Below, in pieces: positions 15,783-62,719 of a stretch of 64,000 nt of DNA. The position numbers were made by a program, and so were the translations under genes. The notes under the pieces were generated by a model. It saw nothing but the letters and a program-made list of their open reading frames with translations. It was not told the origin of the DNA and searched no databases. Position 1 is the stretch's first letter. Every line of letters starts with the position of its first letter. This stretch comes from an uncultured bacterium (GTDB lineage Bacteria; Patescibacteriota; Minisyncoccia; UBA6257; 2-01-FULL-56-20). The DNA is taken from assembly GCA_963844965.1 (NCBI GenBank), contig CAWJQC010000004.1:64001-128000 (forward strand), written 5' to 3'.

Positions 15783-15896
15783 AAATTTATATTACAACAA
15801 TTTAATTTCTAAGTCCAAGCCCTGAATTAACAGAGAAATTCAAAACCGCCTTTTCGGGCGGCTTTGTTTCTGCGTAATTCCGCGTAGTTCCGCGCT

Positions 15897-31231: not shown

Positions 31232-33913
31232 ATGAGTGGGATAAAAATAAATCTTTCTCTCAGCGAAATCCCAGGCATCGGCCCGCGTTTTCTGGAACGG
31301 CTGGGAAAACTCGGCATAAAAACCGTCCGTGATCTCATTTATCATTTTCCGGCCCGCTACGAGGATTTCTCCCAGATATACAAAATTTCCGACGTTGAGC
31401 CGGGGGAACAGGTAACAATACGTGGCGTTGTTGAAGACACCAAACTGCGGCGGACTTGGAGAAAACACATGACAATCGCCGAAGCCCTGATCCGCGACGA
31501 TTCCGGAACGATACGCGCCATCTGGTTCAACCAACCATATGTTTTGAACACTCTGCGGGTCGGGCGCACGGCGAATTTCGCAGGCAAAATATCCATATCG
31601 GACGAGGACGAAATTTATTTGAGCCACCCGGCTTATGAAATCGTCGGCAGTCGGGAGTCGGGAACGGAGAAGCAAGAAACAAAACATACAGCGCGGCTCG
31701 TCCCCATTTATCCCGAAACGCGCGGCCTCACATCCAAGGGGTTGAGATATCTGATCCAGCCAATTCTGAAAAACAGCGAACAGCTGGAGGAATGGCTGCC
31801 GCCGGAAGTTCTGCGCGAAAATAATTTTCCCGAAATAAACCTTGCGCTCAGATCCATACACTTCCCCGAAAAAACCGAGGATGCTCTTGTCGCGAAAAAA
31901 CGCTTCACTTTTGAAAACCTGTTCCTGCTGCAACTCGCCAATCTTGAACAAAAATTGAAACTCGCGCGCGAAAAAGCGCCAGTGATCAAAACCGACATAG
32001 AACACCTGAAAAAAATGATCTCGGAACTGCCATACGAACTCACGTTTTCGCAAAAGAAATCATTGTGGGAAATCATCCAGGACCTCGCCAAAAAACAGCC
32101 GATGAACCGCCTGCTCCAGGGCGACGTGGGCTCCGGCAAGACGGTTGTCGCGGCGCTCGCCGCGGTAATTACCGCGGAAAACGGGCTGCAGACCGCGTTT
32201 ATGGCGCCAACCGAGGTTCTCGCGAGACAGCATTTTGAAACATTGAAAAAATTATTCGCCGGAATTCCCTCGATCCATCAACCCGTAGTTGGGCTTCTCA
32301 CGTCAAGCGAAGCAAAAATCCTCTACGCGACAGACCTTGAATCAAAAATCAAAAAACCGGAGTTGCAGGAAAAAATAAAAAACGGCGAGGTAAAAATAGC
32401 CATCGGCACGCACGCTTTGATACAAAAAGACGTGGCGTTCGGCAATCTTGCCTTTATCATCATTGACGAACAGCATAGATTCGGCGTCTCACAACGAGCT
32501 GCGCTCGTTCGCGGACAGACGCAGAATGATAATACGCGGACAGACGCTGAACAACTACTATACGAAAAAACGACGTTTGAGATAAGAAAAAGTCTGTTTG
32601 AGGTGAGAAAACAACTGGGCCTTGGTCATAAAGAAGTGGTGTATCAGAAAGCATTGGAGGAGGAGTTCAAGAAATCCGGTGTAATATTTGAGAAAGAAAA
32701 GAAAATTCCTGTCGTTTATAACAAGAAAAAGATTGGCGTTTATCAACCGGATTTTGTCATAGATAATGAAGTAATTTTGGAACTTAAGGCTCTTCCCTTT
32801 ATCGGCGGCATCGAAAAAAAACAGCTGTGGAATTATTTGAGGGGTTCGGATTACAAACTCGCGCTTATGGCAAACTTTGGACCGGAAAGATTATCCATAG
32901 AGCGGGTAGTATACGATATTGCGCGGAGTCGGCGGCTGTCAGCGTCCGGTCAGCAACTGTCCGCGCCTATCCCCCACCTCCTCTCAATGTCCGCCACGCC
33001 AATCCCACGCACGCTCATGCTCACCGTCTTCGGCGATTTGGATATATCGCTCATCACCGAACTTCCCGCCGGCAGAAAAAATATCGTAACAAAAATAATC
33101 CCCCCACGGGGCAGGAGCGAAGCCTATGAATTCATCCGCGGCGAAGTGAGGGCCAGCCGGCAGGTTTTTGTCATCTGCCCCCGCATTGACAAACCGCAGA
33201 CAGGCGCAGACCACACGCAGACAAACGCAGACAAGACACAGACAGACGCAGACAATTTTCAGCGGCTGTCTGCGTCAAGTCAGCGACTGTCCGCGTTAAG
33301 TCCACGTAAGTCCGCGTTAGTGTGGGAAGTAAGATCCGTGAAAGAAGAATTTGAAAAATTATCCAAGAAAATTTTTCCGGATTTGCGCGTCGCCATGCTC
33401 CACGGCCAGCTCAAGCCAAAAGAAAAAGCGGGTATCATGAAGGACTTCCGCAACTACAAAATAGATATTCTCGTTTCAACTTCCGTCGTGGAAGTTGGCG
33501 TGGACGTGCCGAACGCAACAATAATGATGATTGAAGGCGCCGATCGCTTCGGGCTGGCTCAGATCTACCAATTCCGCGGACGCGTGGGGCGCGGCGAACA
33601 CCAATCCTATTGCTTCCTGTTCACGGATTCGTCCGCCAAAACTACGCGCGAGCGGCTGCAGGCCGTCCTTGAAGCCAAGAACGGCTTTGAGCTCGCCGAG
33701 AAGGACCTGAAGATCCGCGGTCCCGGCGAATTCCTCGGCACGGCGCAGACCGGCTTTCCCGACACGGCGATGAGCGGCCTCATGAACCCGGAGCTCGTGA
33801 AAGCAAGCCGCGAAGCGGCGGCAAAAATCGTCCAAAAAGATCCGCTTTTCAAAAATTATCCGCTCCTGAAAACCAAATTAAACGAGTTCCGGAAGGAAAT
33901 CCACTTGGAGTAG
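31232..33913 (+). CDS. recG: ATP-dependent DNA helicase RecG carrying an inserted GxxExxY/PD-(D/E)XK nuclease-like domain (about 32500-32990) and a second short repeat-encoded insert (33180-33310)
   Basis: Wedge/OB N-terminus; helicase motifs GDVGSGKT, DEQHRFG, QxxGRxGR (YQFRGRVGRGEHQSY). Internal segment GHKEVVYQKALEEEF...YQPDFVIDNEVILELKA matches GxxExxY plus D-x(n)-ExK. Confidence 0.85.
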   Translation: MSGIKINLSLSEIPGIGPRFLERLGKLGIKTVRDLIYHFPARYEDFSQIYKISDVEPGEQVTIRGVVEDTKLRRTWRKHMTIAEALIRDDSGTIRAIWFNQPYVLNTLRVGRTANFAGKISISDEDEIYLSHPAYEIVGSRESGTEKQETKHTARLVPIYPETRGLTSKGLRYLIQPILKNSEQLEEWLPPEVLRENNFPEINLALRSIHFPEKTEDALVAKKRFTFENLFLLQLANLEQKLKLAREKAPVIKTDIEHLKKMISELPYELTFSQKKSLWEIIQDLAKKQPMNRLLQGDVGSGKTVVAALAAVITAENGLQTAFMAPTEVLARQHFETLKKLFAGIPSIHQPVVGLLTSSEAKILYATDLESKIKKPELQEKIKNGEVKIAIGTHALIQKDVAFGNLAFIIIDEQHRFGVSQRAALVRGQTQNDNTRTDAEQLLYEKTTFEIRKSLFEVRKQLGLGHKEVVYQKALEEEFKKSGVIFEKEKKIPVVYNKKKIGVYQPDFVIDNEVILELKALPFIGGIEKKQLWNYLRGSDYKLALMANFGPERLSIERVVYDIARSRRLSASGQQLSAPIPHLLSMSATPIPRTLMLTVFGDLDISLITELPAGRKNIVTKIIPPRGRSEAYEFIRGEVRASRQVFVICPRIDKPQTGADHTQTNADKTQTDADNFQRLSASSQRLSALSPRKSALVWEVRSVKEEFEKLSKKIFPDLRVAMLHGQLKPKEKAGIMKDFRNYKIDILVSTSVVEVGVDVPNATIMMIEGADRFGLAQIYQFRGRVGRGEHQSYCFLFTDSSAKTTRERLQAVLEAKNGFELAEKDLKIRGPGEFLGTAQTGFPDTAMSGLMNPELVKASREAAAKIVQKDPLFKNYPLLKTKLNEFRKEIHLE

Positions 33914-36625: not shown

Positions 36626-36859
36626 AATAATTTACTACCTACTACCTACTACCTACCGCTTTTAATTGTTTCGGGGCGACAATCTCATAGCTTTATTATA
36701 TAAGAACAGGGAAAGATATGTAGAAAGGGGTGTGCATAGGCGCGAAAACTGCCCGAGCGGCGGCCGCAAATTTCCCGGCCATCCGGGATATAAAAAAGGC
36801 TCTCGCGAGGAATTGCGAATTGCGAATCCTCACGAGAGCCAAACATACCGGAGGGGAAT

Positions 36860-38222: not shown

Positions 38223-38345
38223 ATAAGTGCATTATAGTAAACCGGCGGCGGATATCAACCCCCACACCAAACGAGGACTTTCCGGGTCCCGCGCCGAAGG
38301 CGCATGTCCTCGTTAGGATTCTCGATAGGAATTGCCGGTGCGACA

Positions 38346-39545: not shown

Positions 39546-39811
39546 CATGTAGCTGTCAACTCCTCTCAACTCCCGAGAAAACCCAGATGGCGAGCTTCTC
39601 CCTGCCTCGATAGGGTAGAAAAACAACTCAAACAGCCCAACGAAATTCGTTGGGCTGGATTTTTTTAACCAATGGCGTCACCCGCCGTTGAATTCCTTAA
39701 TATCTTTTGGCGAACACCGTTTAAACTACCTGTCAACCCCCACCTTTTTTCCGAAAAGGCGGGGGTCAAGCGGCCGCGGCGGCTGACCCGCTGAGCTGAA
39801 GCGACGATACC

Positions 39812-40066
39812 CTACAACTCATAAATCTCATCTCGCTTGCCTATTTTGAGTATATAAATTGCGCCATTTCTAACGTCAAATACCAACCTATAATCGCCCA
39901 CGCGAAATCTGAACTCCCCGCCGCGGTTATCAGCCAAACGCTTGGCAAACCTCAACGGATTATCCTCTGACGCATAAAAGCGCATCTTCTTCGCGATGCG
40001 CATTTGAACTTCTCTCGGCAGGGATTCCAACCGCTTAGCCGCCCGCTTGGCATAGAAAATCTTCAT
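39812..40066 (-). CDS. RelE/ParE-family toxin
   Basis: 84 aa; FYAKRAAKRLESLPREVQMRIAKKM...EFRFRVGDYRLVFDVRNGAIYILKIGKRDEIY, typical RelE/ParE. Confidence 0.7.
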   Translation of the reverse strand: MKIFYAKRAAKRLESLPREVQMRIAKKMRFYASEDNPLRFAKRLADNRGGEFRFRVGDYRLVFDVRNGAIYILKIGKRDEIYEL

Positions 40067-40242
40067 TACAATCCCAACTTCTTAAACAGCTTATCCTGCG
40101 ATATAGTTTTTTTTGCCTTGATTTCTTTTCTCGCTTCGCGGACATCCAAAATATGCGCGAGGTAGCCAAGCAGGGCGCCGAAGCGAGCATCCGTTTTCCT
40201 CAAACGCTCGTATTCTTGTTTTGGTATAGTAACCGTGGTCAT
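40066..40242 (-). CDS. Antitoxin partner of the RelE/ParE toxin (58 aa; stop overlaps the toxin ATG as TAATG)
   Basis: Not in the ORF track (under 60 aa). MTTVTIPKQEYERLRKTDARF...; translationally coupled to the toxin. Confidence 0.55.
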   Translation of the reverse strand: MTTVTIPKQEYERLRKTDARFGALLGYLAHILDVREARKEIKAKKTISQDKLFKKLGL

Positions 40243-40554
40243 ATTAAGTGCATTATAGCAAACCGGCGGCGGATGTCAACCCCCACACCAAACGAGGACG
40301 CGCGCCTTCGGCGCAGGACCCGGAAAGTCCTCGTTTGGTGTGGGGGTAAATTATGCCGAAAAAGCCGGAAGGAAAGATGCGATCTATGTTTCTCCCGCAA
40401 GAATACCCCCGCCGCAGGCGGGGGATGAATTGCGGTTCGAGAAACATAAACCCCGCCGATGGCGGGGTGAACTACCACCTAACATGCTGCATGTGCTAAG
40501 TATTTCGTGCGCAGCACGGCAGTTGAGATACCACCGCTGTGAGGCGGTGGTAGT

Positions 40555-43500: not shown

Positions 43501-43680
43501 TCCCGAACCGTAACCGGGAGTGGGAGGAGGAGAAGCAAACGCATAGTAGGTAGTAGGTAGTAGGTAGTAGGTAGTAGCGAGAATGACGAAAAACAAAACG
43601 CGCGGCGCAAAACTCGGACACGCACCGTAAAACTTGCGGCGGAGCTTTTGCTGTTTTTGGAACAAACCTGCGTCCATCAT
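40555..43680 (-). CDS. Giant Sec-secreted fibre-like surface protein 2 (1041 aa) with peptidase-S74-type C-terminal intramolecular chaperone domain
   Basis: Same signal peptide as protein 1; GNVGIGT repeats; in-frame tandem 237-bp (79-aa) duplication at about 41237-41710; C-terminus NSSDERLKKNIVPLSG...GLDYTGLIAPMIESIKEQQQEISALQAQNAALQEKV, the S74 autoproteolysis motif SDxRLK plus a coiled coil. Confidence 0.75.
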   Translation of the reverse strand: MMDAGLFQKQQKLRRKFYGACPSFAPRVLFFVILATTYYLLPTTYYAFASPPPTPGYGSGAISVNAAGNLGIGTSTPSANVRLLIVASSTDSSNFALQVVQPGSAVPLLVVRNDGTVGIGTSNLTNAGSVNLASGMSIYGSVSGLVSAGNISPGVFNSLQLDSGVPYGFPHSVFITSGLGITTTTASNLPQALSVYGGGYFSGNVGIGTANPTQQLQLTSNMLLPMAAGNVNGNLFFGGDTSVGVNGMRLFSSDSSGGGFIDVKASAATNGLIFRVDTSAGAAERMRITAGGNVGIGTTGPASLFSVGASSQFQVDNNGNIAKINSITYSWPAAQGGASTVLTNNGAGTLSWSAAGGSVTSVSDSGVGTLTISPTAGAVSAALNLGHANTWTALQTFSSGASANTLTVSGISGSIQCLHVSAAGVVSGTGSDCASSGGTVNASNVAAGYFGSNVVSTGNYLFPASVVVSSSLAVATSGSAVGPQALSVYGGGYFTGSVGIGTAAPGYKLDVEGGFLKTSYNTQSLPVSDGLGGLAVGWNYTGGNAEVDFYNVYNNPTTAFQFSEKTGASSKTDLVTILGSGNVGIGTASPATTLHVVNGSKFAKFDLTSNGTDALLQLGPAAVANWARIGSNGSPMAFLTQGSDSSGASPALFINNNGNVGIGNTAPVAKLDIQSGSTSTLRLDNTNGSNVDWIKFTTSNGAFTYADLTSQSYGLNLALGTGMGGGPYFSITNGNVGIGNTAPVAKLDIQSGSTSTLRLDKTNGSNVDWIKFTTSNGAFTYADLTSQSYGLNLALGTGMGGGPYFSITNGNVGIGTTAPASTLSVGGAGQAGAGIYGTGSMYGVYGTAGATGYGVYGYGTGNGLPAVYGYNAGTGVGVEGYSDTAGANGSAGYFGNPAGYGVFSTAAIGVYGSGSTYDFQGAHGEYTNNAGQWINSSDERLKKNIVPLSGSLAELELLTPVSFEWKDTKLMGSGEQLGLTAQNVQTVFPQLVETDASGTLGLDYTGLIAPMIESIKEQQQEISALQAQNAALQEKVDALLK

Positions 43681-43735
43681 AATAATTTACTATCTACTAC
43701 TTACTACCTACCACCTACTACCTACTACCTACTAC

Positions 43736-44200
43736 TTACTGCTTCGCAGGCGGTCCCTGGATGGTGCCGCTTGCCACTTGCGAAGGAAGCTGCTGCGAAG
43801 GAAGTTGCTGTCCCGATGACTGAAGCGAAGAAGGGTTGGCGAATGCCTGCACAAGCTGACTGTCGTTGCGCAGGCTCGTCCAGAAAATCACCTGCTTGGC
43901 GTTCAAATGGACCTCGTCAACCGGGCCCCAGAAAGCGTTCTTGAGGGCGGAGAGTCCGAGCTGTGCCTGATTCTGCTGATTGACGCTCCTCTGCAGGAAC
44001 CAGACGTTTGTCAGACGCAGGGACGGGAACCAGCTCAGTTTGCCGAAATAGATATCACCGGTCGTAAGATAGACCGCCGAATACTCGGAAGGGCCAGCCG
44101 GATTTTTGGGAGACATGAGTTTCAAGCCGAGCCACAGGCCGAAAATCAGGACGACGAGCACAATGAGAACCAGGACAGCGATTAATTTTTTGGGCAACAT
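43736..44200 (-). CDS. Membrane-anchored hypothetical protein with Gln-rich C-terminus
   Basis: N-terminal TM LIAVLVLIVLVVLIFGLWLGL; SSGQQLPSQQLPSQ tail. Confidence 0.45.
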   Translation of the reverse strand: MLPKKLIAVLVLIVLVVLIFGLWLGLKLMSPKNPAGPSEYSAVYLTTGDIYFGKLSWFPSLRLTNVWFLQRSVNQQNQAQLGLSALKNAFWGPVDEVHLNAKQVIFWTSLRNDSQLVQAFANPSSLQSSGQQLPSQQLPSQVASGTIQGPPAKQ

Positions 44201-44933: not shown

Positions 44934-45797
44934 TTAGGTACAAGAAACGCTTGAAGTCGCAATCATGCCGCTGCCCGTAATATAAAGCCGATAGCAGGAA
45001 GCACCATTCTTCAGGATTATGCCGGACGCGCTATTGCTTATATATATATCTCCCCCGGCGACCTGAAGCGCCTGCGTCGGCTGCGAACCCATGTTCACGC
45101 CGGCGTAGCCGGTAAAATAAACATTATTTGAGCCGGGTAAGCCGAAATTGAGCACGCCGTTGACGTTACTCCAGTATTGCGTGGCAGTTCCAAGCGGCAG
45201 GCCGGTGGTTGACGATGGAAACACACCGGTATCAAAAGTCGCCGCATTCACGCGCGCAATCGCCGTCTGCAGTGCCTCCGAAAATTGCTGTGTCGCGTTC
45301 TGCGTATTGTTGGCCACAACGAATGAAACGCTCACGGAGTCGTGCCCCGGCGCGTTGGAACGCTTTATAAAAGTGAGGGAAGTAACGTTCACCCTCGGAG
45401 TTGTAAGCGGCTGCGGCGTGCCGGTAGCGGTCTGTTGCAAATATACCGTGCCAGGCGTACCGGAAGACAGATAAATGTAGGTCGGGTCCAACGAACTGGC
45501 TGCCATCCGCAACTTTAGGGTGCTCGTAGCGATATCCTGGTTTAACTCAACAAGACTTGAGCGTTCTATGTAATATTGGATCTGCTGCAACAGGAACTGG
45601 CTTTCTTGGTTCACCTCGGCGGCAGCCGACTGGCGGGATTGGATACGTATGACGGCGACCATCATCGTTATAAACGCAACCATGACTATTGCGAAGATCG
45701 CCGAAAAAGCAAGAAGTTCAATGATGGTGAAACCCTTCTTTGAACGGTAGGTGTAGTAAGTGGTAGGTGGTAAGTGGTAGGTGGTAAATTTCTTCAT
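44934..45797 (-). CDS. Type IV pilin-like / pseudopilin protein with extended heptamer-encoded leader
   Basis: KKGFTIIELLAFSAIFAIVMVAF is the class III signal (G-F-T-x-x-E) plus hydrophobic helix. It is preceded by TTYHLPPTTYYTYRS encoded by a (GGTAGTA)-type heptamer tract. Confidence 0.7.
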   Translation of the reverse strand: MKKFTTYHLPPTTYYTYRSKKGFTIIELLAFSAIFAIVMVAFITMMVAVIRIQSRQSAAAEVNQESQFLLQQIQYYIERSSLVELNQDIATSTLKLRMAASSLDPTYIYLSSGTPGTVYLQQTATGTPQPLTTPRVNVTSLTFIKRSNAPGHDSVSVSFVVANNTQNATQQFSEALQTAIARVNAATFDTGVFPSSTTGLPLGTATQYWSNVNGVLNFGLPGSNNVYFTGYAGVNMGSQPTQALQVAGGDIYISNSASGIILKNGASCYRLYITGSGMIATSSVSCT

Positions 45798-45806
45798 ATT
45801 AACTAA

Positions 45807-46187
45807 TTATAACACTTGGGCGCCTAATGCGCTTATTGCCTTATTTATCATCCACATGATTTCATCTAAATCTTCGGCCAATTTCCTGTATGTTTCGGGG
45901 TTCAAATATTTTAATTCATAGACAATCTCTAACTGAGTTTCCAGCTCTGCGCCGGAACTATATGCGTTTCTCAAAAATTGTAATTTTTCTTTTTTGGAAC
46001 TTCTCCGAAAACCCTCGGCAATATTAGACGGCATAGAAATCGCCGCTCGCCGCATTTGACTTGTTAGACCATATAGTTCCGACGGTGGAAATTTTTCGGT
46101 AACTCCGTATATCAGAACCGCATACGATTTTGTGCGTTTCCAAATGTTCAAATCTCTGTAAGATTTAATGGCTGAATTTTCCGCCAT
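45807..46187 (-). CDS. Four-helix-bundle protein (TIGR02436-like)
   Basis: 126 aa; ...YGLTSQMRRAAISMPSNIAEGFRRSSKKEKLQFLRNAYSSGAELETQLEI..., characteristic of that family. Confidence 0.6.
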   Translation of the reverse strand: MAENSAIKSYRDLNIWKRTKSYAVLIYGVTEKFPPSELYGLTSQMRRAAISMPSNIAEGFRRSSKKEKLQFLRNAYSSGAELETQLEIVYELKYLNPETYRKLAEDLDEIMWMINKAISALGAQVL

Positions 46188-46331
46188 GTCTAAATTCTAC
46201 TATATCATACTACCTACCACCTACTACATACTACTTACCGTGTCCGACCACCTCTCGCGTTTTCGGCGTTACCCAAAAGCGTCGCTCGCCTACGCTCGCT
46301 CCCTCACAACCTCTCGGTTTTGAGTAATTTC

Positions 46332-48005
46332 CTACACGGGAAAACTCCCGTTTTCCCGACCCCTTTCCCTGATTTTGGGCGTCACCCAAAATCCCAACCG
46401 CCATTTCCCTCCCAACATCAATCTGGTCTGCGCTTCAAGACCTGGCAACGCGCCAAAGATTATGAGCGTCAGCGGTATAAAAATCCACTGAAGAAAATAA
46501 ATGAGGTAGTGCCGCGCGCGGAACCAGCGCGGGCGCGGAGGCAAGAGCAGAATACCTAAAATCGCCGAACTTGCGATGCCTATCATGGAAAGCGAGACGA
46601 TGAAACGCGCGACTTGCGGCAGACTGTAAGAAAGGAGCGTGTAGTTGAAACGCCTGCCGCCGATGAACACCGGCAGCCACCCCAACGCGAAGATCATGAG
46701 GGAATTCGTCGCCCAAGAATGGAAACCTTCAAGGATATTGAAGGACCAATACCATTTTTTTCTTTTCGGAATTTCCGGGTCGCGCCGGAAGCCGTCCAGA
46801 AGATACGGAATATTTTCCGCGCCCCATCCCCAGCGCCGCTGTTGCCTGTAGATATTTTTCATCGTGGCCCAGAAAGTCGGCGCCGCGGGCGCGTCCATGG
46901 AAACCGGGTAAAGAAGGGGCTCAACGCGAAAATCGCCGTGATAGTGGAGATAGCACTGCCAAAAAATCCTTGAGTCCTCGGAGACAACGTCCTTATGCCA
47001 AAAACCGACGTCAATCAGCGTTTTCAGGGGAATTGACTGCGAAGAAAAAGAGGTCAGACGTTCCGGGCGCGACTGCTGCATCATCTGCCAGAAGGTTGAC
47101 GAAAAAGAAACGACGCGCGCCAAAGCCGGCGTCTCGTAAACGTTGTTCATGAAAAGCGGCACCGGCTGGTAAATCGCACGCTCGCGATCCTCCGAAGACA
47201 AAAAAACGTAGGCAAGCCGCCCGAAATATTCCGGGAAAACCTGCGTGTCAATGTCAAAAACCGACACTAAGATATTTTCATATCTTAACGCGGACTTACG
47301 CGGACTTAACGCGGAACTACGCGGAAAAACTTCTGCATTAGTCTGCACTTGCCCGCCTAAATTTCCTTCGGAAACTTTGGCGGGTAAATCTGCGTTAGTC
47401 TGCGCATTGACCAATGGGTCAATTATTAATTCTTTGGCGTGTGCCGCCGCCCACGCCTCATTGGAACCTTTGCCGGGAATTTCACCGGCTAAATTCCGCG
47501 GATGGACAGTGACAAGAAACCTGAAAAATTTATCGGCGAATTCTTTTTTTATTTTTTCGGCGACCGCTCTGGCGTCTTCCCCACCCGCTTCCTCCGTCGC
47601 CAGCACGACCAAAAGCTTATCCAGCGGATAATTCACGCGAACCAAGCTCTCAAAACTTCCGCGAACCACTTCATAGGGCTCTTTGTACATCGGAAGAATA
47701 ATAAGGTGATACACTTCCGACCATGACAATGACTTATGACGATGACCGCTCAAATTATTGTTATCGTTATTGTCATTTGTCATAGTCCGCAATTTTTCCA
47801 GCCAATCCACTCTCAGGTTTTTCCTCATCGCCGAAAAAGTTGAGCGCAAGTGCAGAGAGAGATAAATCGTTTTCAGGAGCCAGTAGATGTCAAAGAGTAT
47901 GATAAAAACCGCGACGGCGGCGGGCAGCTTCCACGACAGAAAGACCATCAAAAATAAAGTGAGCCAGGCAAGACCTCCGGGAAGAATTTCAAAAAAACGG
48001 TGCAT
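46332..48005 (-). CDS. Membrane glycosyltransferase family 2 (processive-type, QxxRW motif) with an in-frame repeat-element insert at about 47270-47420
   Basis: N-terminal TMs; LVVLATEEAGGED, FDIDTQ (DxD-like), QQRRWGWG, C-terminal TMs. The insert encodes QTNADLPAKVSEGNLGGQVQTNAEVFPRSSALSPRKSAL. Confidence 0.65.
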   Translation of the reverse strand: MHRFFEILPGGLAWLTLFLMVFLSWKLPAAVAVFIILFDIYWLLKTIYLSLHLRSTFSAMRKNLRVDWLEKLRTMTNDNNDNNNLSGHRHKSLSWSEVYHLIILPMYKEPYEVVRGSFESLVRVNYPLDKLLVVLATEEAGGEDARAVAEKIKKEFADKFFRFLVTVHPRNLAGEIPGKGSNEAWAAAHAKELIIDPLVNAQTNADLPAKVSEGNLGGQVQTNAEVFPRSSALSPRKSALRYENILVSVFDIDTQVFPEYFGRLAYVFLSSEDRERAIYQPVPLFMNNVYETPALARVVSFSSTFWQMMQQSRPERLTSFSSQSIPLKTLIDVGFWHKDVVSEDSRIFWQCYLHYHGDFRVEPLLYPVSMDAPAAPTFWATMKNIYRQQRRWGWGAENIPYLLDGFRRDPEIPKRKKWYWSFNILEGFHSWATNSLMIFALGWLPVFIGGRRFNYTLLSYSLPQVARFIVSLSMIGIASSAILGILLLPPRPRWFRARHYLIYFLQWIFIPLTLIIFGALPGLEAQTRLMLGGKWRLGFWVTPKIRERGRENGSFPV

Positions 48006-52317: not shown

Positions 52318-53361
52318 ATGAAGATATTAGCTATAGAAACCAGCTGTGATGAAACCGGGCTTGCCATTGTTGAGGCAAGCGGTGGTTTGCGCTCACCGCG
52401 GTTCAAGGTTTTGAAAAACCTGGTTGCTTCGCAAATCAAAATCCATCGTCCTTTTGGCGGCGTCGTTCCCAATCTCGCCAAGCGAGAACATCTGAAAAAT
52501 CTGCCGATCCTTTACAAGAAAATTGAAAATTCTAAGTTGAAAATTGAAAATTGTGACCTGGTCGTGGTAACTGTCGGTCCCGGACTGGAACCAGCCCTTT
52601 GGACCGGGATAGAATTTGCGAAAAACTTACCTGCCACCTGCCACCCACCACCCACCAAACTTGTCGGCACCAGTCACTTGGAGGGACATCTCTACAGTTT
52701 TTTGCTGCCCACGAAATCCACGAGCGGCTACGCTTCGGCACTCCTGCCGAAAGCCGTTTTTCCAGCTATAGCACTCATCGTCTCGGGCGGACACACTATA
52801 CTCTTATACATGGAATCGTTCTCCAAGTGGAAGCGGCTCGGCGAAACGCGCGATGACGCCGCGGGCGAGGCGTTTGACAAGGTCGCGCGCCTTCTTGAGC
52901 TTCCTTACCCCGGCGGGCCGGAGATAGAAAAGCTCGCAGCGAGAGGAAATCCATTCGCCATCACGTTCCCGCGCCCGATGCTTGACCAGAAAAATTACGA
53001 CTTCAGTTTCTCGGGGCTCAAAACTTCCGTCCTATACTACCTGAGAGACAATCCTCGCGCGAACAAAGCCGACGTTGCCGCGGGATTTGAGCAGGCGGTC
53101 GTTGATGTTCTCGTCGCGAAAGCCAAACGTGCCGCGCAGGAATACGGCGCCGAATCCATACTCCTCTCCGGCGGCGTCGCAGCGAACAAGCACTTGCGCA
53201 GGGCGCTCGCGCGCGCGGCTGAACTCATCGGCGCCAATTTCTTCGTTCCCGATTTCAAATACAACGCGGACAACGCCGTGATGATTGCGGCCGCCGGATA
53301 TATGGCGTATTTACGTAAGAAAAAATATAAACTTGAAGCACGGGGAAATTTAGAGATATAA
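52318..53361 (+). CDS. tsaD: tRNA N6-adenosine threonylcarbamoyltransferase TsaD (Kae1/Gcp family) with a short repeat-encoded insert
   Basis: MKILAIETSCDETGLAIVE... HLEGHLYS ... VSGGHTIL ... GGVAANKHLR. Insert LPATCHPPPT is encoded by ACCTGCC/ACCCACC heptamer-like repeats at 52621-52650. Confidence 0.8.
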   Translation: MKILAIETSCDETGLAIVEASGGLRSPRFKVLKNLVASQIKIHRPFGGVVPNLAKREHLKNLPILYKKIENSKLKIENCDLVVVTVGPGLEPALWTGIEFAKNLPATCHPPPTKLVGTSHLEGHLYSFLLPTKSTSGYASALLPKAVFPAIALIVSGGHTILLYMESFSKWKRLGETRDDAAGEAFDKVARLLELPYPGGPEIEKLAARGNPFAITFPRPMLDQKNYDFSFSGLKTSVLYYLRDNPRANKADVAAGFEQAVVDVLVAKAKRAAQEYGAESILLSGGVAANKHLRRALARAAELIGANFFVPDFKYNADNAVMIAAAGYMAYLRKKKYKLEARGNLEI

Positions 53362-54306: not shown

Positions 54307-57104
54307 ATGCCCGAAGAATTTCCTACGCGCTACGACATAAAGGAAGTTGAAACGAAAATCTACGACCTATGGGAAAAGTCTGGGTTTTTCAATCCCGATG
54401 TTTGCGTTGAAAAAGGCGCGACGAAACCGGACGCCGAACCTTTTTCCATCGTCCTGCCGCCGCCGAACGTAACCGGCACCTTGCACATCGGCCACGCCTT
54501 TGAGGACGCGATCCAAGACACCGTTGTCCGCTACGAGCGCATGCGCGGCAAGCGGACGCTCTGGGTTCCCGGGACCGACCACGCCGCCATCGCCACGCAG
54601 GCGAAAGTGGAGGAACTTCTGCGCAAGGAAGGGAAAACGAAATACGACCTCGGCCGGGAGGAATTCCTGCGGCGCGTGAACGAGTTCGCCAAAAATTCTC
54701 ATGACATCATAATCCGCCAGATAAAACGGCTCGGCGCTTCGCTTGATTGGGGCCGCGAGGCATATACGCTTGATGAAAAACGAAATCTCGCCGTCCGCAC
54801 CGCCTTTAAAAAAATGTACGACCTCGGCCTCATTTACCGCGGCGATCGTATCGTGAACTGGGACCCGAAGCTACAGACCACCGTCTCCGACGACGAGGTG
54901 GAATGGATAGACGAAACGACGCCTTTCTACTATCTGAAATATGGGCCGTTCGTCATCGGCACGGCAAGACCGGAAACGAAGTTTGGCGACAAATACGTCG
55001 TCATGCATCCGGACGACGAACGCTATAAAAAATATAAACACGGCGAAAAGATAGAACTTGAATGGATAAACGGGTCGGTCACGGCAACAATTATCAAGGA
55101 TAAGGTCATTGACGTGAATTTCGGCACGGGCGTGATGACAATCACACCATGGCACGACATGACGGACTTTGACATCGCGGAAAGGCATCGCCTGGATAGG
55201 GAGCAGATAATCGACCTGCGCGGCAAACTGCTGCCCATCGCCGGCGAATTCGCCGGAACGCCTATCGCCAAGGCCCGGCCGCTCATTATTGAAAAACTAA
55301 GAACAAAGGGTCTCGTGGAAAAGATTGACGAACATTACGCCCATCGCGTCGCCACGAACAGCCGCGGCGGCGGCCTCATCGAACCGCAGATCCTCAAACA
55401 ATGGTTCGTCAAGGTAAACTCCAAGTTCCAAATCCCAATTTCCAACCTAAAAGGGATAAAAAGCGGCCAAGAGGTGACGCTCAAGGAACTTATGAAAAAA
55501 GTCGTGGAGTCGGGGCAAATAAAAATCATACCCGGACAGTTTGAAAAAATTTACTATCATTGGATAGACAACCTGCGCGACTGGTGCATCTCGCGCCAGC
55601 TTTGGTTCGGGCACAGAATTCCGGTGTGGTATTGCCTCGCCTGCGGCGAGCCGCAAGTTGAACCGAAAATAAAATCGCGATGGTTCCTGGTGCGGCACGG
55701 AGAAACAGACTGGATCAAAGAGGGGCGGCACATGGGACATAAAGAGGTTCCCATGAATGAAACCGGCAAGCAGCAAGCGATGGTAGCCGGCGAACGGCTC
55801 GCAAACGAAAAAATTGATCTGATAATTTCTTCCACCACCATGCGCTGCAAAGAAACCGCCGAAATTATCGCGAAAAAACTGGGTGTCAAAATTATTTTTG
55901 ACGAACGTCTGCGCGAGCGCGGCAGTGGCGAATGGGAAGGACTGCTGCATGCGGAAATCAGGGAAAAATACAAACCTCTGGAGCAAAAATATGGACCGAG
56001 GAGTGGAACAAGCGCGCGCGCTATGAATTCAAACCGCCGGGAGGAGAAAATTGGCTGGAACTTGAAAAGCGCGTAATTCAATCGTTCAAAGAGCACAAAC
56101 TTCGATACGCCGACAAAAATATCGCGATTGTCACCCACGCCGGTCCGATCAGGATCCTGGAAAAAAATCTTAAAAACAAATCATTTGAAGAAGTGGTGGG
56201 ATTAATACCCGAGAATGCCGAGATTGCTAAGCTTTCAATCGCAACTGCTTCCTGTAAAAAATGTGGCAGTGATACTTACGAGCAGGATCCCGATACTCTG
56301 GATACCTGGTTCTCCTCCGCTATGTGGACGTTCTCAACTCTCGGCTGGCCTGAAAAAACCTCCGACCTCAGAACCTACCATCCAACCTCTTTGATGGCGC
56401 CGGGGTATGAAATCCTTTTCTTCTGGGTGGCGCGGATGATACTCATGAGCGGCTGTCTTTTGGGAGAAATCCCCTTCCGCACGGTTTATCTCCACGGCAT
56501 TGTGCGCGACAAGCAGGGCAAGAAATTCAGCAAATCCAGCGGTCACGCGCTTGACCCCCTGGAACTAGCCGACAAATACGGAGCGGACGCCCTGCGCATG
56601 GCTTTAATTGCCGGAGCGGCGCCGGGAAACGACGTGCAATTTGACGAGAATAGGGTCAAGGGCTACAGGAATTTTTCAACCAAGATATGGAACGTAGCGC
56701 GGTTTGTTTTACTAAACAAACCGCCGCAGACAGACGCTGACAAGACGCGGACAGCCGCGGACATTGCTGGCCGACCAGAGATAAAGGAGTTTGAGGCAAT
56801 TAAATCGGAAATAACGAAACATCTTGATGAATACGAACTGCATCTCGCAAGCGAAAAGATTTACCACTACTTCTGGCACACTTTCGCCGACAAAATAATT
56901 GAACAGGAAAAAGCCAACCTGCGGACAGCCGCCGACAAGACGCAGACAGACGCAGACATTGCGAGACGGGCAGAATCCTATGCCCTACTGGGATACATTC
57001 TCGTCGGTTCGCTTAAACTACTCCACCCTTTCATGCCGTTCGTAACAGAAGAGATTTATCAAAAATTTGAACTAAATAAGCTTCTCTTGACCGAAAAATG
57101 GTAA
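54307..57104 (+). CDS. valS: Valyl-tRNA synthetase with an inserted histidine-phosphatase (PGAM-like) domain; 1-nt deletion in an A6 run near 55987-55993 splits it into two ORF-track pieces
   Basis: PPPNVTGTLHIGHA (HIGH), GKKFSKSSGH (KMSKS), VLDTWFSS. Between WYCLACGE and CKKCGSD lies a ~190-aa block: FLVRHGETDW...SSTTMRCKETA...GSGEWEG...AIVTHAGPIRIL, the RHG histidine-phosphatase signature. Frame repair CAAAAATATGG to CAAAAAATATGG restores ...KPLEQKIWTEEW... Confidence 0.85.
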
Positions 57105-57619: not shown

Positions 57620-58297
57620 GTGAGTATTCTGACACTCATCCTCGCTCTTCTTCCCGGCTTCGCCTGGCTTCTTTTTTATCTGGAAGAAGACCTTCATCCG
57701 GAGCCGAAGCGGCTCATCGCCTACACATTTGTGATAGGAATGGCCTCGGCTTTTTTCGCGCTCGCCATAGAAATATTTTTCAAGTCTATTTTCAATAACG
57801 CGGGCGTCGCGGAACTTTCCCTGCTCCCGCTGCTCGTCTTCGCCTTTGTGGAAGAGATCATCAAATTCGGGGCAGCTTACCTGGCCGTTCACAAAAATCC
57901 TGCTTTTGACGAACCGGTGGACGCCATGATCTACTGCGTGGTCGCGGCCCTTGGATTCGCCACCGTGGAAAACATCGGTGCCTTGACCGGCGGTTATTCA
58001 GCGCAAACGGCGCTTTTAAGCCAGGTCTTCGCCGCGACCTCAACCCGATTCGTAGGCGCCACGCTTCTACATTCTCTCGCCTCGGCACTGGTCGGCTATT
58101 ATTGGGCGGTCGGCATCAGGGATATGCGGGTCAAAAAATATGTTCTATGGGGATTGCTCATCGCCACCGTCTTGCACGCCATTTTCAACTATCTTATAAT
58201 TATCTATGGAAACGTGGCCTACGTAGCTGTGTTTCTTTTAGTAATAGGTTTCTTTGTTCTCAGCGATTTTGAGAAATTAAAAAGAAGGTCGATATAA
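57620..58297 (+). CDS. PrsW-family intramembrane metalloprotease
   Basis: Conserved EExxK (VEEIIKFG), FATVEN and HAIFN motifs in TM helices. Confidence 0.65.
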   Translation: MSILTLILALLPGFAWLLFYLEEDLHPEPKRLIAYTFVIGMASAFFALAIEIFFKSIFNNAGVAELSLLPLLVFAFVEEIIKFGAAYLAVHKNPAFDEPVDAMIYCVVAALGFATVENIGALTGGYSAQTALLSQVFAATSTRFVGATLLHSLASALVGYYWAVGIRDMRVKKYVLWGLLIATVLHAIFNYLIIIYGNVAYVAVFLLVIGFFVLSDFEKLKRRSI

Positions 58298-58398
58298 TAA
58301 AAAATTAAAAATTTAAAAATCAAAAATAAAAATGACTGAGTTCGCGAAGCGAACATCTGCATTTTACATTTTGATGTTTACATTTTAAATTTCCTATC

Positions 58399-60014: not shown

Positions 60015-60085
60015 CGGCGGTCAAAAACGGAGTATCGTATAATGGTAGTGCCTGCCGGCAGGCAGGCACATGCATGGCCCAGCAC

Positions 60086-60154
60086 TAAAATTTTCGGGCT
60101 GTAGTATAGCGGCAGTACGCACCCTTGGGGTGGGTGTAGACCGGGTTCGACTCC
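60086..60154 (+). tRNA. tRNA-Pro (anticodon GGG)
   Basis: Acceptor GGGCTGT/GCAGCCC, anticodon arm CACCC-TTGGGGT-GGGTG, T-arm CCGGG-TTCGACT-CCCGG (one nucleotide short, possibly an indel), discriminator G. Its last two nucleotides overlap the start of a 159-bp inverted repeat. Confidence 0.7.
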
Positions 60155-60311
60155 CGGCAGCCCGACATAACGGAACTTGCATCAACTTTTTCAAAATCAA
60201 CGCGCTCGCTTCGCTCGCTGTCTTTATGCACGAGGGGCAAATGGAGAAGCAAATCCGTAACTACTTTCCATTCGTCTTTCCAATCCCAAAAAATTTCCCT
60301 GTCCCGCAGGC

Positions 60312-61686
60312 GGCGGTTCGTTCCGATTTTCCCCGCAAAGGATTTTATGGCGTCGAATTCTTCGGACGAAGCCAGTTTTGCCGCGTGAAACGCGGATATA
60401 ATCCATTCCCGCAATGGTTCGATCCAATAGTTTCCCCTCCGCCCGCAATCATCATTCTGCTTGGACAAGGAAACTTTAGTTTTGATAAGCTCGTCCTTTT
60501 TGGCAAGATAGATTTCTTTTTCAATTGAGCCGTCCAAAAAGGCGTTCACGAGCTTGTCTAATTTCTGCTCGGTTTCCTTGAGTTGGGTTTCGAGATTGCG
60601 GGCGGAATTCTCCGAAGATTGGATGCCTTCTTTTTCCCACGCTTCCACTTGAACCAGCATTTTCTCTTTCCAATCTTCGGGGATGGCGACCTCCGAGATT
60701 TTCTCTTTGAGCTGTTGCACGAGTAAATCTTCGCGCAGATAGCTTTGTGAACACGGGCCAAGCCGTTTCGTACAGCGATAATACTTGTAGAGGCCGCCGT
60801 TCCCTTTCGCGTATTGGGCGGTGATGGCCGCGCCGCACTCGCCGCAGGTGAGCAATCCGGTGAACGGGAAATAATGACGCTTCTTGGAGTGGCGCGGCTT
60901 GGCTTTGTTCCTCAAAACCTCCTGCACTTTCTTGAAGGTCGCCTCGGGAACTATCGGCAGGAAATTGCCGACATAGCTCTCGCCGTTGTGTTTTATCACT
61001 CCGAGATAGGCGGAGTTCGTGAGCATCCGTTGGAGCGTGGCCTTCGGCATGGGATTTCCCGTACCGCTCACGATGCCGAAAAACTGGAAGCGGGCGGCGA
61101 GCGTCTTTAGGGTGTGCCTCCCTTCGGCGTATTCCTCAAAAACTTTTCTGATGATTCTCGCCCGCACGGGGTCGGGTTCGATGTTCCGCGTCTTGGGATT
61201 GTTGAGGTAACCGAAGGGGGCTTTGGTCGGCCACTCGCCGCGCCGCAATTTCTGCCGGATGCCGCGCTTCACGTTCTCGGAAAGGTTATCGCTGTAATAC
61301 TTGGACTGGCCGAAGGCGACCTGCAACATGAAAAGTCCCTGCGGGGTCGGCTCAAACCAGAACGTCGGGAACTTCAGCGAGGCAATCTTCTGGGTATCGA
61401 TGAGGTAGATGATTTGGCCGCCGTCTATGGAGTTGCGAGCCAATCGGTCGGGATGCCACGCCAATATGCCGACGGGTTCTTTGCTCTCGTGAATTTTCTT
61501 GATAAGGTCGCCGAACACTTCCCTGCCCGGACTTTTCGCGCTCTTGCTCTCGATGAAGGTCTCGATAATCTTTATATGTTCCCGTTTAGCGAACTCGGCA
61601 AGCTCCGCGAGTTGGGCTTCAATGCTCATCACCTGCCGTTCCTCGTCCTCGGTGGACTTGCGGGCATAGAGGAAATATGGGGTCAT
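60312..61686 (-). CDS. Large serine recombinase (body; the C-terminus continues into the left IR, and the annotated tail beyond 60153 is read-through antisense to tRNA-Pro)
   Basis: YARKSTEDEERQVMSIEAQ catalytic motif, recombinase domain, zinc ribbon CGECGAAITAQY...YYRCTKR, coiled-coil C-terminus. Confidence 0.8.
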
Positions 61687-61759
61687 ATCAATATTATAGC
61701 GTCATCACGCCATATAGCGCAATAGTGCCCTGCCTGATACGATATTCATAAGAATACTC

Positions 61760-61963
61760 ATGGATATAGCGGCTAAATTCGGACAGAAGATAAAGAGGTT
61801 GCGATTGAGCGGAAAGATGTCTCAAGGTGGCCTCGCCAAGAAGCTCGGCGTTGGTGCTTCCTATGTCAGCAAGATAGAGCGTGGCATACAAAACGTATCT
61901 CTTAAGGGCGTGGAGAAATTAGCCGATGCGTTGGGCGTACCACCCGACCGCCTCTTGAAATAA
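61760..61963 (+). CDS. XRE-family helix-turn-helix transcriptional regulator
   Basis: 67 aa; IKRLRLSGKMSQGGLAKKLGVGASYVSKIERGIQNVSLKGVEKLADALGV, a classic HTH_3 domain. Confidence 0.7.
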   Translation: MDIAAKFGQKIKRLRLSGKMSQGGLAKKLGVGASYVSKIERGIQNVSLKGVEKLADALGVPPDRLLK

Positions 61964-62719
61964 CTGGCCTCGTCCGAAAGTTTCGGATAGATAAAATCCG
62001 CAAGGGAAAAATCGGGACAAAGATTCTTTCTTGTCGCAATTCACTTGCGACGAACCGCCGCCTGCGGGACAGGGAAATTTTTTGGGATTGGAAAGACGAA
62101 TGGAAAGTAGTTACGGATTTGCTTCTCCATTTGCCCCTCGTGCATAAAGACAGCGAGCGAAGCGAGCGCGTTGATTTTGAAAAAGTTGATGCAAGTTCCG
62201 TTATGTCGCAGTTGCTGAACGCTGTACGAACCTATTTTATCGAAAATCCGAGGGATTAGCCACCGGATTTACCCCTTCATTCACCCCTTCATTCGGGTAT
62301 GCTCGGAATGAAGGGGTAGCAAGTCCTGATTGCCCTGAAAACGCTGGGCTTTTTGACTCTCGCCGGACAAAACCAGAAGTCCTACTTCACTCCGGTTTGC
62401 CTAGTCAATCACCCCGTCAATCACGATTGACTACCCTGACGGCCATTCCGCCCTTACGAGACCTCGCTTTTCTCAAAAATCCTGACCCCCGACAATACCC
62501 CTAAACGGGTCTGTGCTCAGCCCCTCAGCCGCTCACTGTTGTTCGGGCTTCGGGGCTTCGCGTATGGCGCGCCCAAATTCCTCCCCCAACCCCTCCTTTG
62601 GGGCGCGCCGAGGGCGGTTGCGGCAACCCTTGGAACAGGGTATGGTTGAGATATCCACGCATAGGCGATGAAGCTCGCCGCAACCGCCCTTAGGGGCTGA
62701 TAGCTTCTATCTCAAAAAG

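What the first reader, a model, noticed from the sequence alone, without database searches (positions are those of the whole stretch)
56700..56970. Two further short left-arm-type repeat inserts in the valS C-terminal domain; fragment also found after rpsJ
valS 56725-56770 (CAGACAGACGCTGACAAGACGCGGACAGCCGCGGACA, encoding QTDADKTRTAADIA) and 56920-56965 (GCGGACAGCCGCCGACAAGACGCAGACAGACGCAGACA, encoding RTAADKTQTDADIA) add two ~14-aa inserts in the tRNA-binding helical arm. A right-arm-like fragment GCGTAATTCCGCGTAGTTCCGCGC lies in the intergenic DNA immediately after rpsJ (15868-15897). Together with recG (two copies) and GT2 (one), that makes at least six copies in 64 kb, so the family is abundant and active or recently active.
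Basis: seen in the sequence. Interest (0 to 1): 0.6.

Follow-up and report, generated by a model that had tools for sequence, protein, structure and literature searches.

The report
Repeat-element arm fragments inside valS
Two short, translated stretches in the valine-tRNA synthetase gene of a Patescibacteria genome are one-armed fragments of a family of hairpin-forming repeat elements that also sits in other housekeeping genes and, in another organism, in 23S rRNA.

Summary
The two valS arrays are real and far beyond chance. Each has 3.5 units with core GCNGAC, spaced 10-11-10 nt (not 9), read in frame as QTDADKTRTAADIA and RTAADKTQTDADIA.

They match the arms of complete hairpin elements in the same window (recG twice, a glycosyltransferase-like gene) and four hairpins inside a 23S rRNA gene of a metagenome contig. 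One recG copy carries an in-frame GxxExxY PD-(D/E)XK nuclease. Relatives carry the same cargo in RecG or LepA.

- Only array 2 is a clear net insert: +8 aa against the homologue median, a 12-aa gap against T. thermophilus ValRS.
- Array 1 fills a linker of normal length that also holds arrays in relatives.
- Both lie in the anticodon-binding helical bundle. This ValRS lacks the coiled-coil tRNA arm.
- Neither array has an inverted partner.
- "Recently active" is not shown: window copies are at most about 87% alike.

Best reading: inert, translated solo-arm remnants of an RPE-like or IVS-like element family, probably undescribed. The mobility mechanism is inferred, not shown.

The parts
56726..56767 (+). 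valS array 1: four units (10-11-10-11 nt) with core GCNGAC, translated as QTDADKTRTAADIA. It has no inverted partner and fills the native variable linker after ARFVLLNKP.
56921..56962 (+). valS array 2: four units (10-11-10-11 nt), translated as RTAADKTQTDADIA. It is a net insertion of about 8 aa against close homologues and 12 aa against T. thermophilus ValRS, and has no inverted partner.
56699..56724 (+). 11-bp perfect hairpin GCGGTTTGTTT/AAACAAACCGC coding (A)RFVLLNKP, directly 5' of array 1. It is kept with two compensatory pairs in the three relatives that also carry arrays at this site.
54307..57104 (+). valS host gene, in two overlapping ORFs (frameshift at 55932-56076), with a histidine-phosphatase domain inserted in the catalytic domain.
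32511..32964 (+). recG element 1. Left arm about 32511-32552, in-frame GxxExxY PD-(D/E)XK ORF about 32573-32911, right arm about 32927-32964. This is the cargo-bearing member of the family.
33196..33315 (+). recG element 2: cargo-less hairpin with 5-6 units per arm, in frame. It is homologous to hairpins in the 23S rRNA gene of L146.
47290..47403 (-). In-frame hairpin element with a nested hairpin, in the glycosyltransferase-like gene 46332-48005.
15863..15893 (-). 2.7-unit array (GCGGAACTAC GCGGAATTAC GCAGAAACAAA) in the rpsJ 3' untranslated region, between the stop codon and a terminator-like hairpin.

Best explanation
The two valS arrays are one-armed, translated remnants of a family of palindromic insertion elements that has multiplied in this Patescibacteria lineage.

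A complete member is a hairpin. Each arm is a phased array of 10/11-nt units with core GCNGAC on one arm and GTCNGC on the other. Some members carry an in-frame GxxExxY PD-(D/E)XK nuclease gene between the arms. Most carry nothing.

The elements act at the DNA level. Copies survive in essential genes only where they keep the reading frame and land in tolerant surface linkers. In valS they occupy two inter-helix linkers of the anticodon-binding bundle. Site 1 is an old, repeatedly occupied linker, so there is no net length change. Site 2 is a gain of about 8 aa specific to this lineage.

Without a partner arm the valS copies cannot fold back. They are most likely inert: transcribed and translated as flexible hydrophilic loops.

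Shown: family membership, arm architecture, cargo-bearing and rRNA-borne relatives, and presence or absence among orthologues. Inferred: spread by nuclease-assisted insertion or homing, loss of the second arm by deletion, and similarity to other copies maintained by gene conversion or re-insertion.
For: - The arrays are non-random.
- Every arm segmented in the window has unit lengths starting 10-11-10, except recG element 1's left arm (10-15-10) and the rpsJ fragment (10-10). The GT2 element's other arm did not segment into units.
- The valS arrays share 12-14 of 18 non-core positions with the best-matching arms: recG element 2's inner left-arm and inner right-arm blocks, each other, and (array 1) the 23S rRNA hairpin of L146. 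Other arms score 6-12. About 4.5 is expected by chance. Array 2 is 83% complementary to the recG right arm over 36 nt (I18).
- Complete copies fold as long hairpins with z-scores of -6.0 and -7.0.
- recG element 1 carries GxxExxY (TIGR04256, E=1.5e-29) in frame between paired arms. By direct reading it has an intact GHKEVVY...PD...ELK motif.
- Relatives carry the same cargo with array peptides in LepA and RecG. Six of the 120 top RecG homologues have PF13366.
- Four hairpins lie inside an LSU rRNA gene (L146). Three of them are closely similar over about 150 nt, and recG element 2 aligns to them.
- At valS site 1, L002 has a full hairpin and L001 a left-only array read in another frame. L204-L206 have none.
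- Left-only 10-11-10 arrays also occur in frame in atpG and thrS, a mostly left-arm array in grpE, and a full hairpin in secA of other metagenome organisms.
- Array density is 4.1 per 10 kb in the window against 0.6-0.9 in relatives.
- The AF2 model puts array 1 in a low-confidence loop. Array 2 is a loop plus the start of a helix.
Against: - The valS copies have no inverted partner, so hairpin membership is by arm homology only.
- No target-site duplications, identical copies or transposase were found. Mobility is inferred from distribution, not shown.
- Array 1 causes no net length change, so "insertion" there needs either replacement of an older array or an ancient event.
- Most of the 124 arrays matching the 10/11 GCNGACA pattern in the metagenome loci are solo, non-coding and heterogeneous. 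Phased GCNGACA arrays can therefore exist without any hairpin element.
- The elements are not significantly more stop-free in six frames than random windows.
Confidence: 0.6

Rival explanations
1. The arrays grew in place by replication slippage or template switching on a phased motif. They are microsatellite-like and were never part of a mobile element.
For: Both valS arrays are solo direct arrays. Their units are near-permutations of each other. The 21-nt super-period keeps the frame on expansion. The length of the array tract at the recG E2 site varies between close homologues. Many solo phased arrays exist in metagenomes.
Against: Adjacent units are not identical copies, as recent slippage would produce. 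The three-unit block [GCNGACAGNC][GCNGACAAGAC][GCNGACAGNC] recurs, with its distinct 11-nt middle unit, in other genes and in another organism's rRNA. Complete inverted-arm and cargo-bearing versions exist.
Confidence: 0.15
2. Array 2 is an intragenic copy of array 1, made by ectopic gene conversion or duplication within valS, and is not an independent insertion.
For: The two are 80% identical over 54 nt, including the shared ...GACATTGC end (D11). They have the same orientation and codon phase and lie 195 nt apart, a multiple of 3. Units 1 and 3 are exactly swapped.
Against: Array 1 and array 2 are no closer to each other (32/38) than to recG element 2 (32-33/38) or, for array 1, to the L146 rRNA element (32/38). 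Similarity beyond the array is weak, about 65% over 17 nt by direct reading.
Confidence: 0.1
3. The arrays are functional nucleic-acid signals: phased binding sites for a protein such as the GxxExxY or four-helix-bundle proteins, or part of an mRNA structure acting with the conserved hairpin just upstream of array 1.
For: The core is kept at the DNA level while the peptide changes between relatives. The 10.5-nt phasing puts the cores on one helix face. An 11-bp hairpin with two compensatory pairs adjoins site 1 in the four array-bearing valS genes only.
Against: GCNGACA is not enriched outside the arrays. Relatives do without arrays at both sites. The covariation support rests on seven sequences and is weak. 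No function was tested.
Confidence: 0.1
4. The arrays are protein-level adaptive linkers, hydrophilic heptad peptides selected for ValRS function.
For: They are in frame and hydrophilic, lie in surface linkers of the anticodon-binding domain, and have a 7-aa periodicity.
Against: The closest relative has the same DNA motif in another frame, giving the unrelated peptide ADLRRHERGLTQTTNAE. The same DNA occurs in rRNA and untranslated regions. Model confidence is low over array 1. Most homologues lack the arrays.
Confidence: 0.05

Closest known systems
Rickettsia palindromic elements (RPEs; Ogata et al. 2000/2002, as summarised in PMC10969869)
   Same: Short palindromic selfish repeats, present in many copies and inserted in frame into unrelated housekeeping genes. 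They are translated and are predicted to be compatible with the host protein's fold and function.
   Different: RPEs are about 150-bp elements in ten identified families, known from Rickettsia. They are not, to my knowledge, built from phased units or associated with a cargo gene. Here the arms are arrays of 10/11-nt units, some copies carry a nuclease ORF in frame, the host is Patescibacteria, and the two valS copies are single arms.
23S rRNA intervening sequences and their ORF families (four-helix-bundle protein TIGR02436/PF05635; GxxExxY TIGR04256/PF13366)
   Same: These are hairpin-forming inverted repeats inserted in 23S rRNA. L146 carries four hairpins of this very family in its LSU rRNA gene. 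The window has a GxxExxY ORF and a four-helix-bundle ORF, each lying between inverted short-period arrays.
   Different: Classical IVSs are in rRNA and are removed by RNase III (my knowledge, not tested here). In this window the same kind of element sits in protein-coding genes, in frame and without stop codons. The valS copies cannot form the stem.
MITEs in general
   Same: Small, non-autonomous, multi-copy elements with terminal inverted repeats in the complete copies. They lie both between and within genes.
   Different: No target-site duplication and no related transposase-bearing IS were found. The only cargo seen is a PD-(D/E)XK nuclease of unknown function (PMC3424549).
[quoted passage not shown]
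   Same: Coding repeats whose DNA has dyad symmetry and which appear to move within and between genomes.
   Different: PARCELs are tandem 25-residue domains in ORFs lacking assigned functions, many with membrane-targeting sequences. They are not short inserts in housekeeping enzymes.
Inteins and homing-endonuclease insertions
   Same: A nuclease ORF is inserted in frame at conserved positions of essential NTPases. The positions are between RecG motifs II and III and in the LepA G domain. The same site is used in different relatives.
   Different: No Hint or intein domain was detected in RecG. The insert is flanked by nucleotide-level inverted arrays. No splicing is implied.
Cyanobacterial STRR heptanucleotide repeats and small dispersed repeats (from memory: Mazel 1990; Elhai 2008; not read here)
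   Same: Short-period tandem repeats that form hairpins and are dispersed through a genome. The window also holds many 7-nt inverted arrays.
   Different: Different taxa and unit sequences. An in-frame presence in housekeeping genes is not their hallmark.

Membership tests
Phased-arm palindromic element family of this window (recG / GT2-gene type) | Units with core GCNGAC spaced alternately 10 and 11 nt | tested here: met
   Both valS arrays are 10-11-10 plus a fourth unit, matching most other arms. The pattern is far above chance.
Phased-arm palindromic element family of this window (recG / GT2-gene type) | Arm similarity beyond the core motif | tested here: met
   12-14 of 18 non-core positions are shared with the best-matching arms (recG element 2 inner blocks; for array 1 also the L146 rRNA element). 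Other arms score 6-12. Array 2 is 83% complementary to the recG right arm over 36 nt.
Phased-arm palindromic element family of this window (recG / GT2-gene type) | An inverted partner arm that forms a hairpin | tested here: not met
   There is no GTCNGC array near either valS array, and the fold of 56690-56990 does not pair them. They are arm-only copies.
MITE | Terminal inverted repeats | tested here: not met
   Absent from the valS copies. Present in recG element 2, the GT2-gene element and L002.
MITE | Target-site duplication | tested here: inconclusive
   No flanking direct repeats were seen by eye at recG element 2, the GT2-gene element or the L146 rRNA copies. The element ends are not defined precisely enough to exclude 2-3-bp duplications.
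MITE | A parent IS with a transposase sharing the ends | not testable with these tools
   Only 64 kb of the genome is available, and no transposase with these ends was seen. The only cargo is GxxExxY.
Rickettsia palindromic elements | In-frame, translated insertion in housekeeping ORFs | tested here: met
   The valS, recG and GT2-gene ORFs read through the elements.
Rickettsia palindromic elements | Membership of the RPE consensus families in Rickettsia | not tested
   No RPE consensus sequences were compared. The host is Patescibacteria and the unit architecture differs, so this is an analogue and is not claimed as a member.
23S rRNA intervening sequence | Located in a 23S rRNA helix | tested here: not met
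   The valS copies are in a protein-coding gene. Homologous hairpins do lie in the LSU rRNA gene of L146.
23S rRNA intervening sequence | Excised from the transcript by RNase III | not testable with these tools
   This needs RNA-end mapping.
Intein | Hint splicing domain flanking the nuclease | tested here: not met
   The NCBIfam scan of RecG shows RecG-type and GxxExxY hits among the 25 of 36 families shown, and no intein model among them.
Simple tandem repeat made by slippage | Head-to-tail near-identical units of one length | tested here: not met
   Unit lengths alternate 10/11, the middle unit is distinct, and TRF reports 83-84% matches.

The most novel reading that the evidence does not exclude
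The valS arrays may be footprints of an undescribed class of Patescibacteria mobile elements. These would be hairpins whose arms are phased 10.5-nt recognition arrays, moved by the GxxExxY PD-(D/E)XK nuclease (and a parallel 7-nt-array family by four-helix-bundle proteins). They would colonise 23S rRNA and, in frame, essential protein genes alike. That would give a function to two very large families of unknown function and a common origin for rRNA intervening sequences and in-frame protein inserts.
Probability: 0.3. Interest if true: 0.8.

Novelty: new variant of a known kind. Interest (0 to 1): 0.55.

Why it matters
Three reasons, if the family reading holds:
- Streamlined Patescibacteria genomes would tolerate selfish palindromic DNA inside essential enzymes such as ValRS, RecG, LepA, SecA, ThrS and AtpG. 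This was known mainly from Rickettsia.
- These in-frame inserts would be tied physically to the hairpin insertions of 23S rRNA and to the GxxExxY and four-helix-bundle gene families, whose roles are unknown.
- In practice, such arrays inflate and scramble loop regions of marker proteins used for phylogeny and annotation. They also explain "odd" low-complexity peptides in CPR proteins.

The two valS copies themselves are probably inert remnants.

Tried and rejected
- **Chance or low-complexity bias:** rejected.
- **Hairpin between the two valS arrays:** rejected. They have the same orientation and the fold does not pair them.
- **Elements evolved to be stop-free in all six frames:** not significant against random windows.
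- **Genome-contig scan for valS orthologues:** It served only as a negative control for the hairpin.
- **Metagenome pattern scan:** Most hits are solo non-coding arrays of other kinds, so no copy-number or taxonomic estimate can be drawn. Smith-Waterman partner detection failed because the arms pair only through their cores.
- **Literature searches:** searches on Patescibacteria in-frame palindromes, GxxExxY, PF13366/PF05635 and heptanucleotide repeats found no description of this family. PF13366 is listed as function unknown.
- **DGR-type mutagenesis:** considered because of the Avd-like four-helix-bundle gene, and dropped. Only the N of GCNGAC varies, not all adenines. No search for a reverse transcriptase was made.
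- **Intein:** no Hint domain.
- **Rfam:** no known RNA family at the arrays.
- **Genome-wide motif such as an uptake or Chi-like sequence:** GCNGACA is not enriched outside the arrays.
Full report
**1. The observation**

valS lies on the + strand as two overlapping ORFs, 54307-56076 and 55932-57104 (ValRS models).

At 56726-56767 the sequence reads GCAGACAGAC GCTGACAAGAC GCGGACAGCC GCGGACATTGC. At 56921-56962 it reads GCGGACAGCC GCCGACAAGAC GCAGACAGAC GCAGACATTGC. Both are on the sense strand in the same codon phase, 195 nt apart. They translate as (P)QTDADKTRTAADIA and (L)RTAADKTQTDADIA.

The pattern GCNGACAN3GCNGACA occurs 5 times in the window against 0.01 expected. The N4-spaced version occurs twice against 0.01.

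The period is 10/11 nt, giving a 21-nt or 7-codon super-period. It is not 9 nt.

**2. The family in the window**

The repeat finder links the valS arrays to recG and to a glycosyltransferase-like gene (D11, D13, I18, I22). Segmenting every arm at its cores gives unit lengths that start 10-11-10 in most arms. The exceptions are recG element 1's left arm (10-15-10) and the rpsJ fragment (10-10). The second arm of the GT2-gene element did not segment into units.

- **recG element 1 (32511-32964).** It has a left arm, an in-frame ORF matching GxxExxY (TIGR04256, E=1.5e-29, RecG residues 448-560) and a right arm that pairs with the left. By direct reading the ORF keeps GHKEVVY...PDFVID...ELK, the PD-(D/E)XK signature.
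- **recG element 2 (33196-33315).** A cargo-less hairpin, -58.4 kcal/mol, z = -6.0.
- **The element in gene 46332-48005 (47290-47403).** A hairpin with a nested hairpin, z = -7.0.
- **The rpsJ fragment (15863-15893, rpsJ strand).** 2.7 units placed between the S10 stop codon and a terminator-like hairpin. It shares a 16-mer with the GT2-gene element.

Outside the invariant core, the valS arrays share 12-14 of 18 positions with their best matches. These are recG element 2's inner left-arm and inner right-arm blocks, each other, and (for array 1) the rRNA-borne element described in section 5. Other arms score 6-12. About 4.5 is expected by chance.

The valS arrays are therefore homologous to arms of this family. 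Neither has an inverted partner, and the local fold does not pair them.

**3. Are they inserts?**

The closest ValRS homologues are from Patescibacteria. I aligned 60 of them and measured linker spans in 108.

- **Site 1.** The span containing it is 56 aa against a median of 54, and 28% of homologues are at least as long. It aligns without a gap to the linker SREGFQAKEDTPTLAD of T. thermophilus ValRS (1GAX). Array 1 is not a net insertion.
- **Site 2.** The span containing it is 43 aa against a median of 35. Of the 108 homologues, 73 have exactly 35 and only 3 are at least as long as the window. There is a 12-aa gap in 1GAX. Array 2 is a real gain, replacing the usual DGTDAEK.

Both sites lie in the anticodon-binding helical bundle (PF08264). 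The protein stops at the equivalent of T. thermophilus residue 705 of 862, so it has no coiled-coil tRNA arm.

An AlphaFold2 model has mean pLDDT 86. It puts array 1 in a low-confidence loop between helices 49-71 and 92-109, with pLDDT below 50 at residues 78-84. Array 2 is a loop at 142-149 plus the start of helix 150-174. From the up-down helix order, both loops should lie at the same end of the bundle. This is an inference. No distances were measured.

**4. Relatives of valS**

DNA was obtained for six relatives.

- **L001** is the closest, at 60% protein identity. At site 1 it has a left-only array (GCGGACTTAC GCAGACATGAAC GCGGACTTAC ...). It is read in another frame and gives the unrelated peptide ADLRRHERGLTQTTNAE.
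- **L002** has a complete hairpin at site 1: four GCGGAC-type units, a loop, and four GTCCGC-type units.
- **L003** has what looks like a decayed version.
- **L204-L206** (about 52-56% identity) have no recognisable array at either site.
- None of the six has an array at site 2.
- P0071 carries an AT-rich heptamer-type peptide at site 1.

Site 1 is thus a repeatedly or anciently occupied, tolerant linker. The DNA motif is what persists there, not the peptide.

In the window, L001 and L002 the array starts 0-3 nt after a 9-11-bp hairpin coding RFVL(L/S)NKP. L003, whose array is decayed, keeps the hairpin with H in place of N. The inner pairs change in a compensatory way: TT/AA, TC/GA, GC/GC. 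The hairpin is absent from L204-L206 and from 80 other bacterial valS loci. The formal pair count gives 2 pairs with changes on both sides, which is weak support from seven sequences. I leave this unexplained.

**5. The family outside this genome**

- **Nuclease cargo.** A search with the recG-borne nuclease found GxxExxY inserted in frame in LepA (P0121, P0126) and in RecG at the same site as here (P0125). All are flanked by array-type peptides and, at the DNA level, by phased arms.
- **RecG polymorphism.** Six of the 120 best RecG homologues carry PF13366. The recG element 2 site is a variable linker. A subset of close homologues carry array peptides of differing length there, while more distant ones have ordinary acidic linkers.
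- **Metagenome scan.** Most hits are heterogeneous, solo, non-coding arrays, so no census can be drawn.
- **In-frame examples in that scan.** It includes left-only 10-11-10 arrays in atpG and thrS, read in a different frame from valS. It also includes a mostly left-arm array in grpE and a full hairpin in secA.
- **An rRNA host.** Contig L146 carries four hairpins inside an LSU rRNA gene (Rfam 1361 bits). Three of them are closely similar over about 150 nt, including unique outer inverted repeats. recG element 2 of the window aligns to their core and loop. By my reading of the flanking rRNA sequence, one of these sits at the classical helix-45 IVS site. This rests on my knowledge and was not tested.
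- **Density.** Period-7/10/11/21 arrays number 4.1 per 10 kb in the window, against 0.6 and 0.9 in two relatives' contigs.

**6. Interpretation**

That condition is not met. Inverted-arm and cargo-bearing copies exist, relatives lack the arrays, and the same DNA is read in several frames and also occurs in rRNA and a 3' untranslated region.

The best-supported reading is that the valS arrays are arm-only, translated remnants of an RPE-like or IVS-like palindromic element family (confidence 0.6).

The following are inferred, not shown: the way the elements spread (nuclease-assisted insertion or homing), loss of the second arm, and maintenance by gene conversion.

"Recently active" is not supported. 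Window copies are at most about 87% alike, no target-site duplications or identical copies were seen, and site 1 is occupied across lineages that differ by 40-46% in ValRS.

The rivals are in-situ slippage (0.15), intragenic copying of array 1 into site 2 (0.10), a functional phased nucleic-acid signal (0.10) and protein-level selection (0.05).

**7. Comparison with known systems**

- **Rickettsia palindromic elements.** This is the closest analogue: in-frame, translated, palindromic and multi-copy (PMC10969869). The present family differs in its phased-unit arms, its occasional in-frame nuclease cargo, its presence in rRNA and its host phylum.
- **23S rRNA intervening sequences.** It shares hairpin form, rRNA location in L146 and ORF families (TIGR04256, TIGR02436) with them. 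In the window it is in protein genes.
- **MITE.** It does not meet the criteria that were testable. No target-site duplication or transposase partner was found.
- **Intein.** It has no Hint domain, so it is not an intein.

Searches of the held literature found no description of such elements in Patescibacteria. PF13366 is listed as function unknown. I class the family as a new variant of a known kind.

**8. Caveats**

- The assembly has frameshifts in essential genes: rpsJ and valS itself. Small indel errors are therefore likely. However, the ValRS C-terminal sequence, arrays included, recurs 100% identical in a separately assembled contig (P0001).
- Only 64 kb of the genome is available.

Noticed in passing
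window 55670-56240 (valS), frameshift at 55932-56076: A histidine-phosphatase domain (PF00300) is inserted in the ValRS catalytic domain at Pfam tRNA-synt_1 profile position about 260. Many Patescibacteria homologues share this architecture. In the window the domain is split by a frameshift into two ORFs.
   Followed up: partly
window 15896-16210 (-) rpsJ: The S10 gene is broken by a frameshift near its N-terminus. EF-Tu (16649-17740) also looks irregular at its C-terminus. Together with valS, this suggests indel errors in the assembly, not pseudogenes.
   Followed up: partly
window 45746-46238: A four-helix-bundle protein gene (TIGR02436, the 23S-IVS/Avd-like family; 45807-46187, - strand) is flanked by inverted 7-nt arrays (GGTAGGT... 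at 45746-45787, TACTACC... at 46208-46238). This is a second cargo-between-phased-arms element with a different unit.
   Followed up: partly
window 36488-36656 and 43544-43740: Inverted (GTAGTAG)n/(TACTACC)n array pairs about 110 nt apart lie at the 5' ends of two large paralogous genes (34973-36625 and 40555-43680, - strand). Those genes themselves contain 228-nt tandem repeats.
   Followed up: no
window 2181-2311, 3245-3342, 3931-3998, 7814-7857, 58296-58392; tsaD 52518-52553 and 52625-52657; valS 55412-55446: AT-rich arrays of about 7-nt period, often in inverted pairs, lie in intergenic regions and also in frame in tsaD (ENSKLKIEN, PATCHPPPT) and valS (NSKFQIPISN). A ValRS homologue (P0071) carries the same peptide type at valS site 1.
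   Followed up: partly
window 56699-56724: An 11-bp perfect hairpin coding RFVLLNKP lies immediately before array 1. It is kept with compensatory inner pairs only in the relatives that also carry arrays at this site. Its role is unknown.
   Followed up: partly
window 60085-62208: A large serine recombinase gene (60085-61686, - strand) lies next to a tRNA (60095-60165) and is bracketed by a 159-nt perfect inverted repeat (60163-60321 / 62050-62208). It may be an integrated element or invertible segment, or an assembly artefact.
   Followed up: no
window 37718-38278 and 39738-40299: A direct duplication of about 570 nt (91-98% identical by segment). Each copy contains a G+C-rich hairpin.
   Followed up: no
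window 21193-21234 and 46328-46369: A 42-nt hairpin-containing sequence (GGGAAAGGGGTCGGGAAAACGGGAGTTTTCCCG...) is present twice in opposite orientation, 98% complementary. It is another small dispersed repeat, possibly a shared terminator.
   Followed up: no
window 62655-62716: Fluoride riboswitch (Rfam RF01734, 47.8 bits).
   Followed up: no
L207 1190-1235: In a relative's lepA, the GxxExxY element is followed by an in-frame TAG before the host sequence resumes in the same frame (…[20 protein letters not shown]). This could be a pseudogene or a sequencing error, or a hint that some copies are not simply read through.
   Followed up: no
L146 10196-12100: Four hairpin elements of about 145 nt lie inside one 23S rRNA gene. 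Three are closely similar, including unique outer inverted repeats. One appears to sit at the classical helix-45 IVS position, by my reading only.
   Followed up: partly
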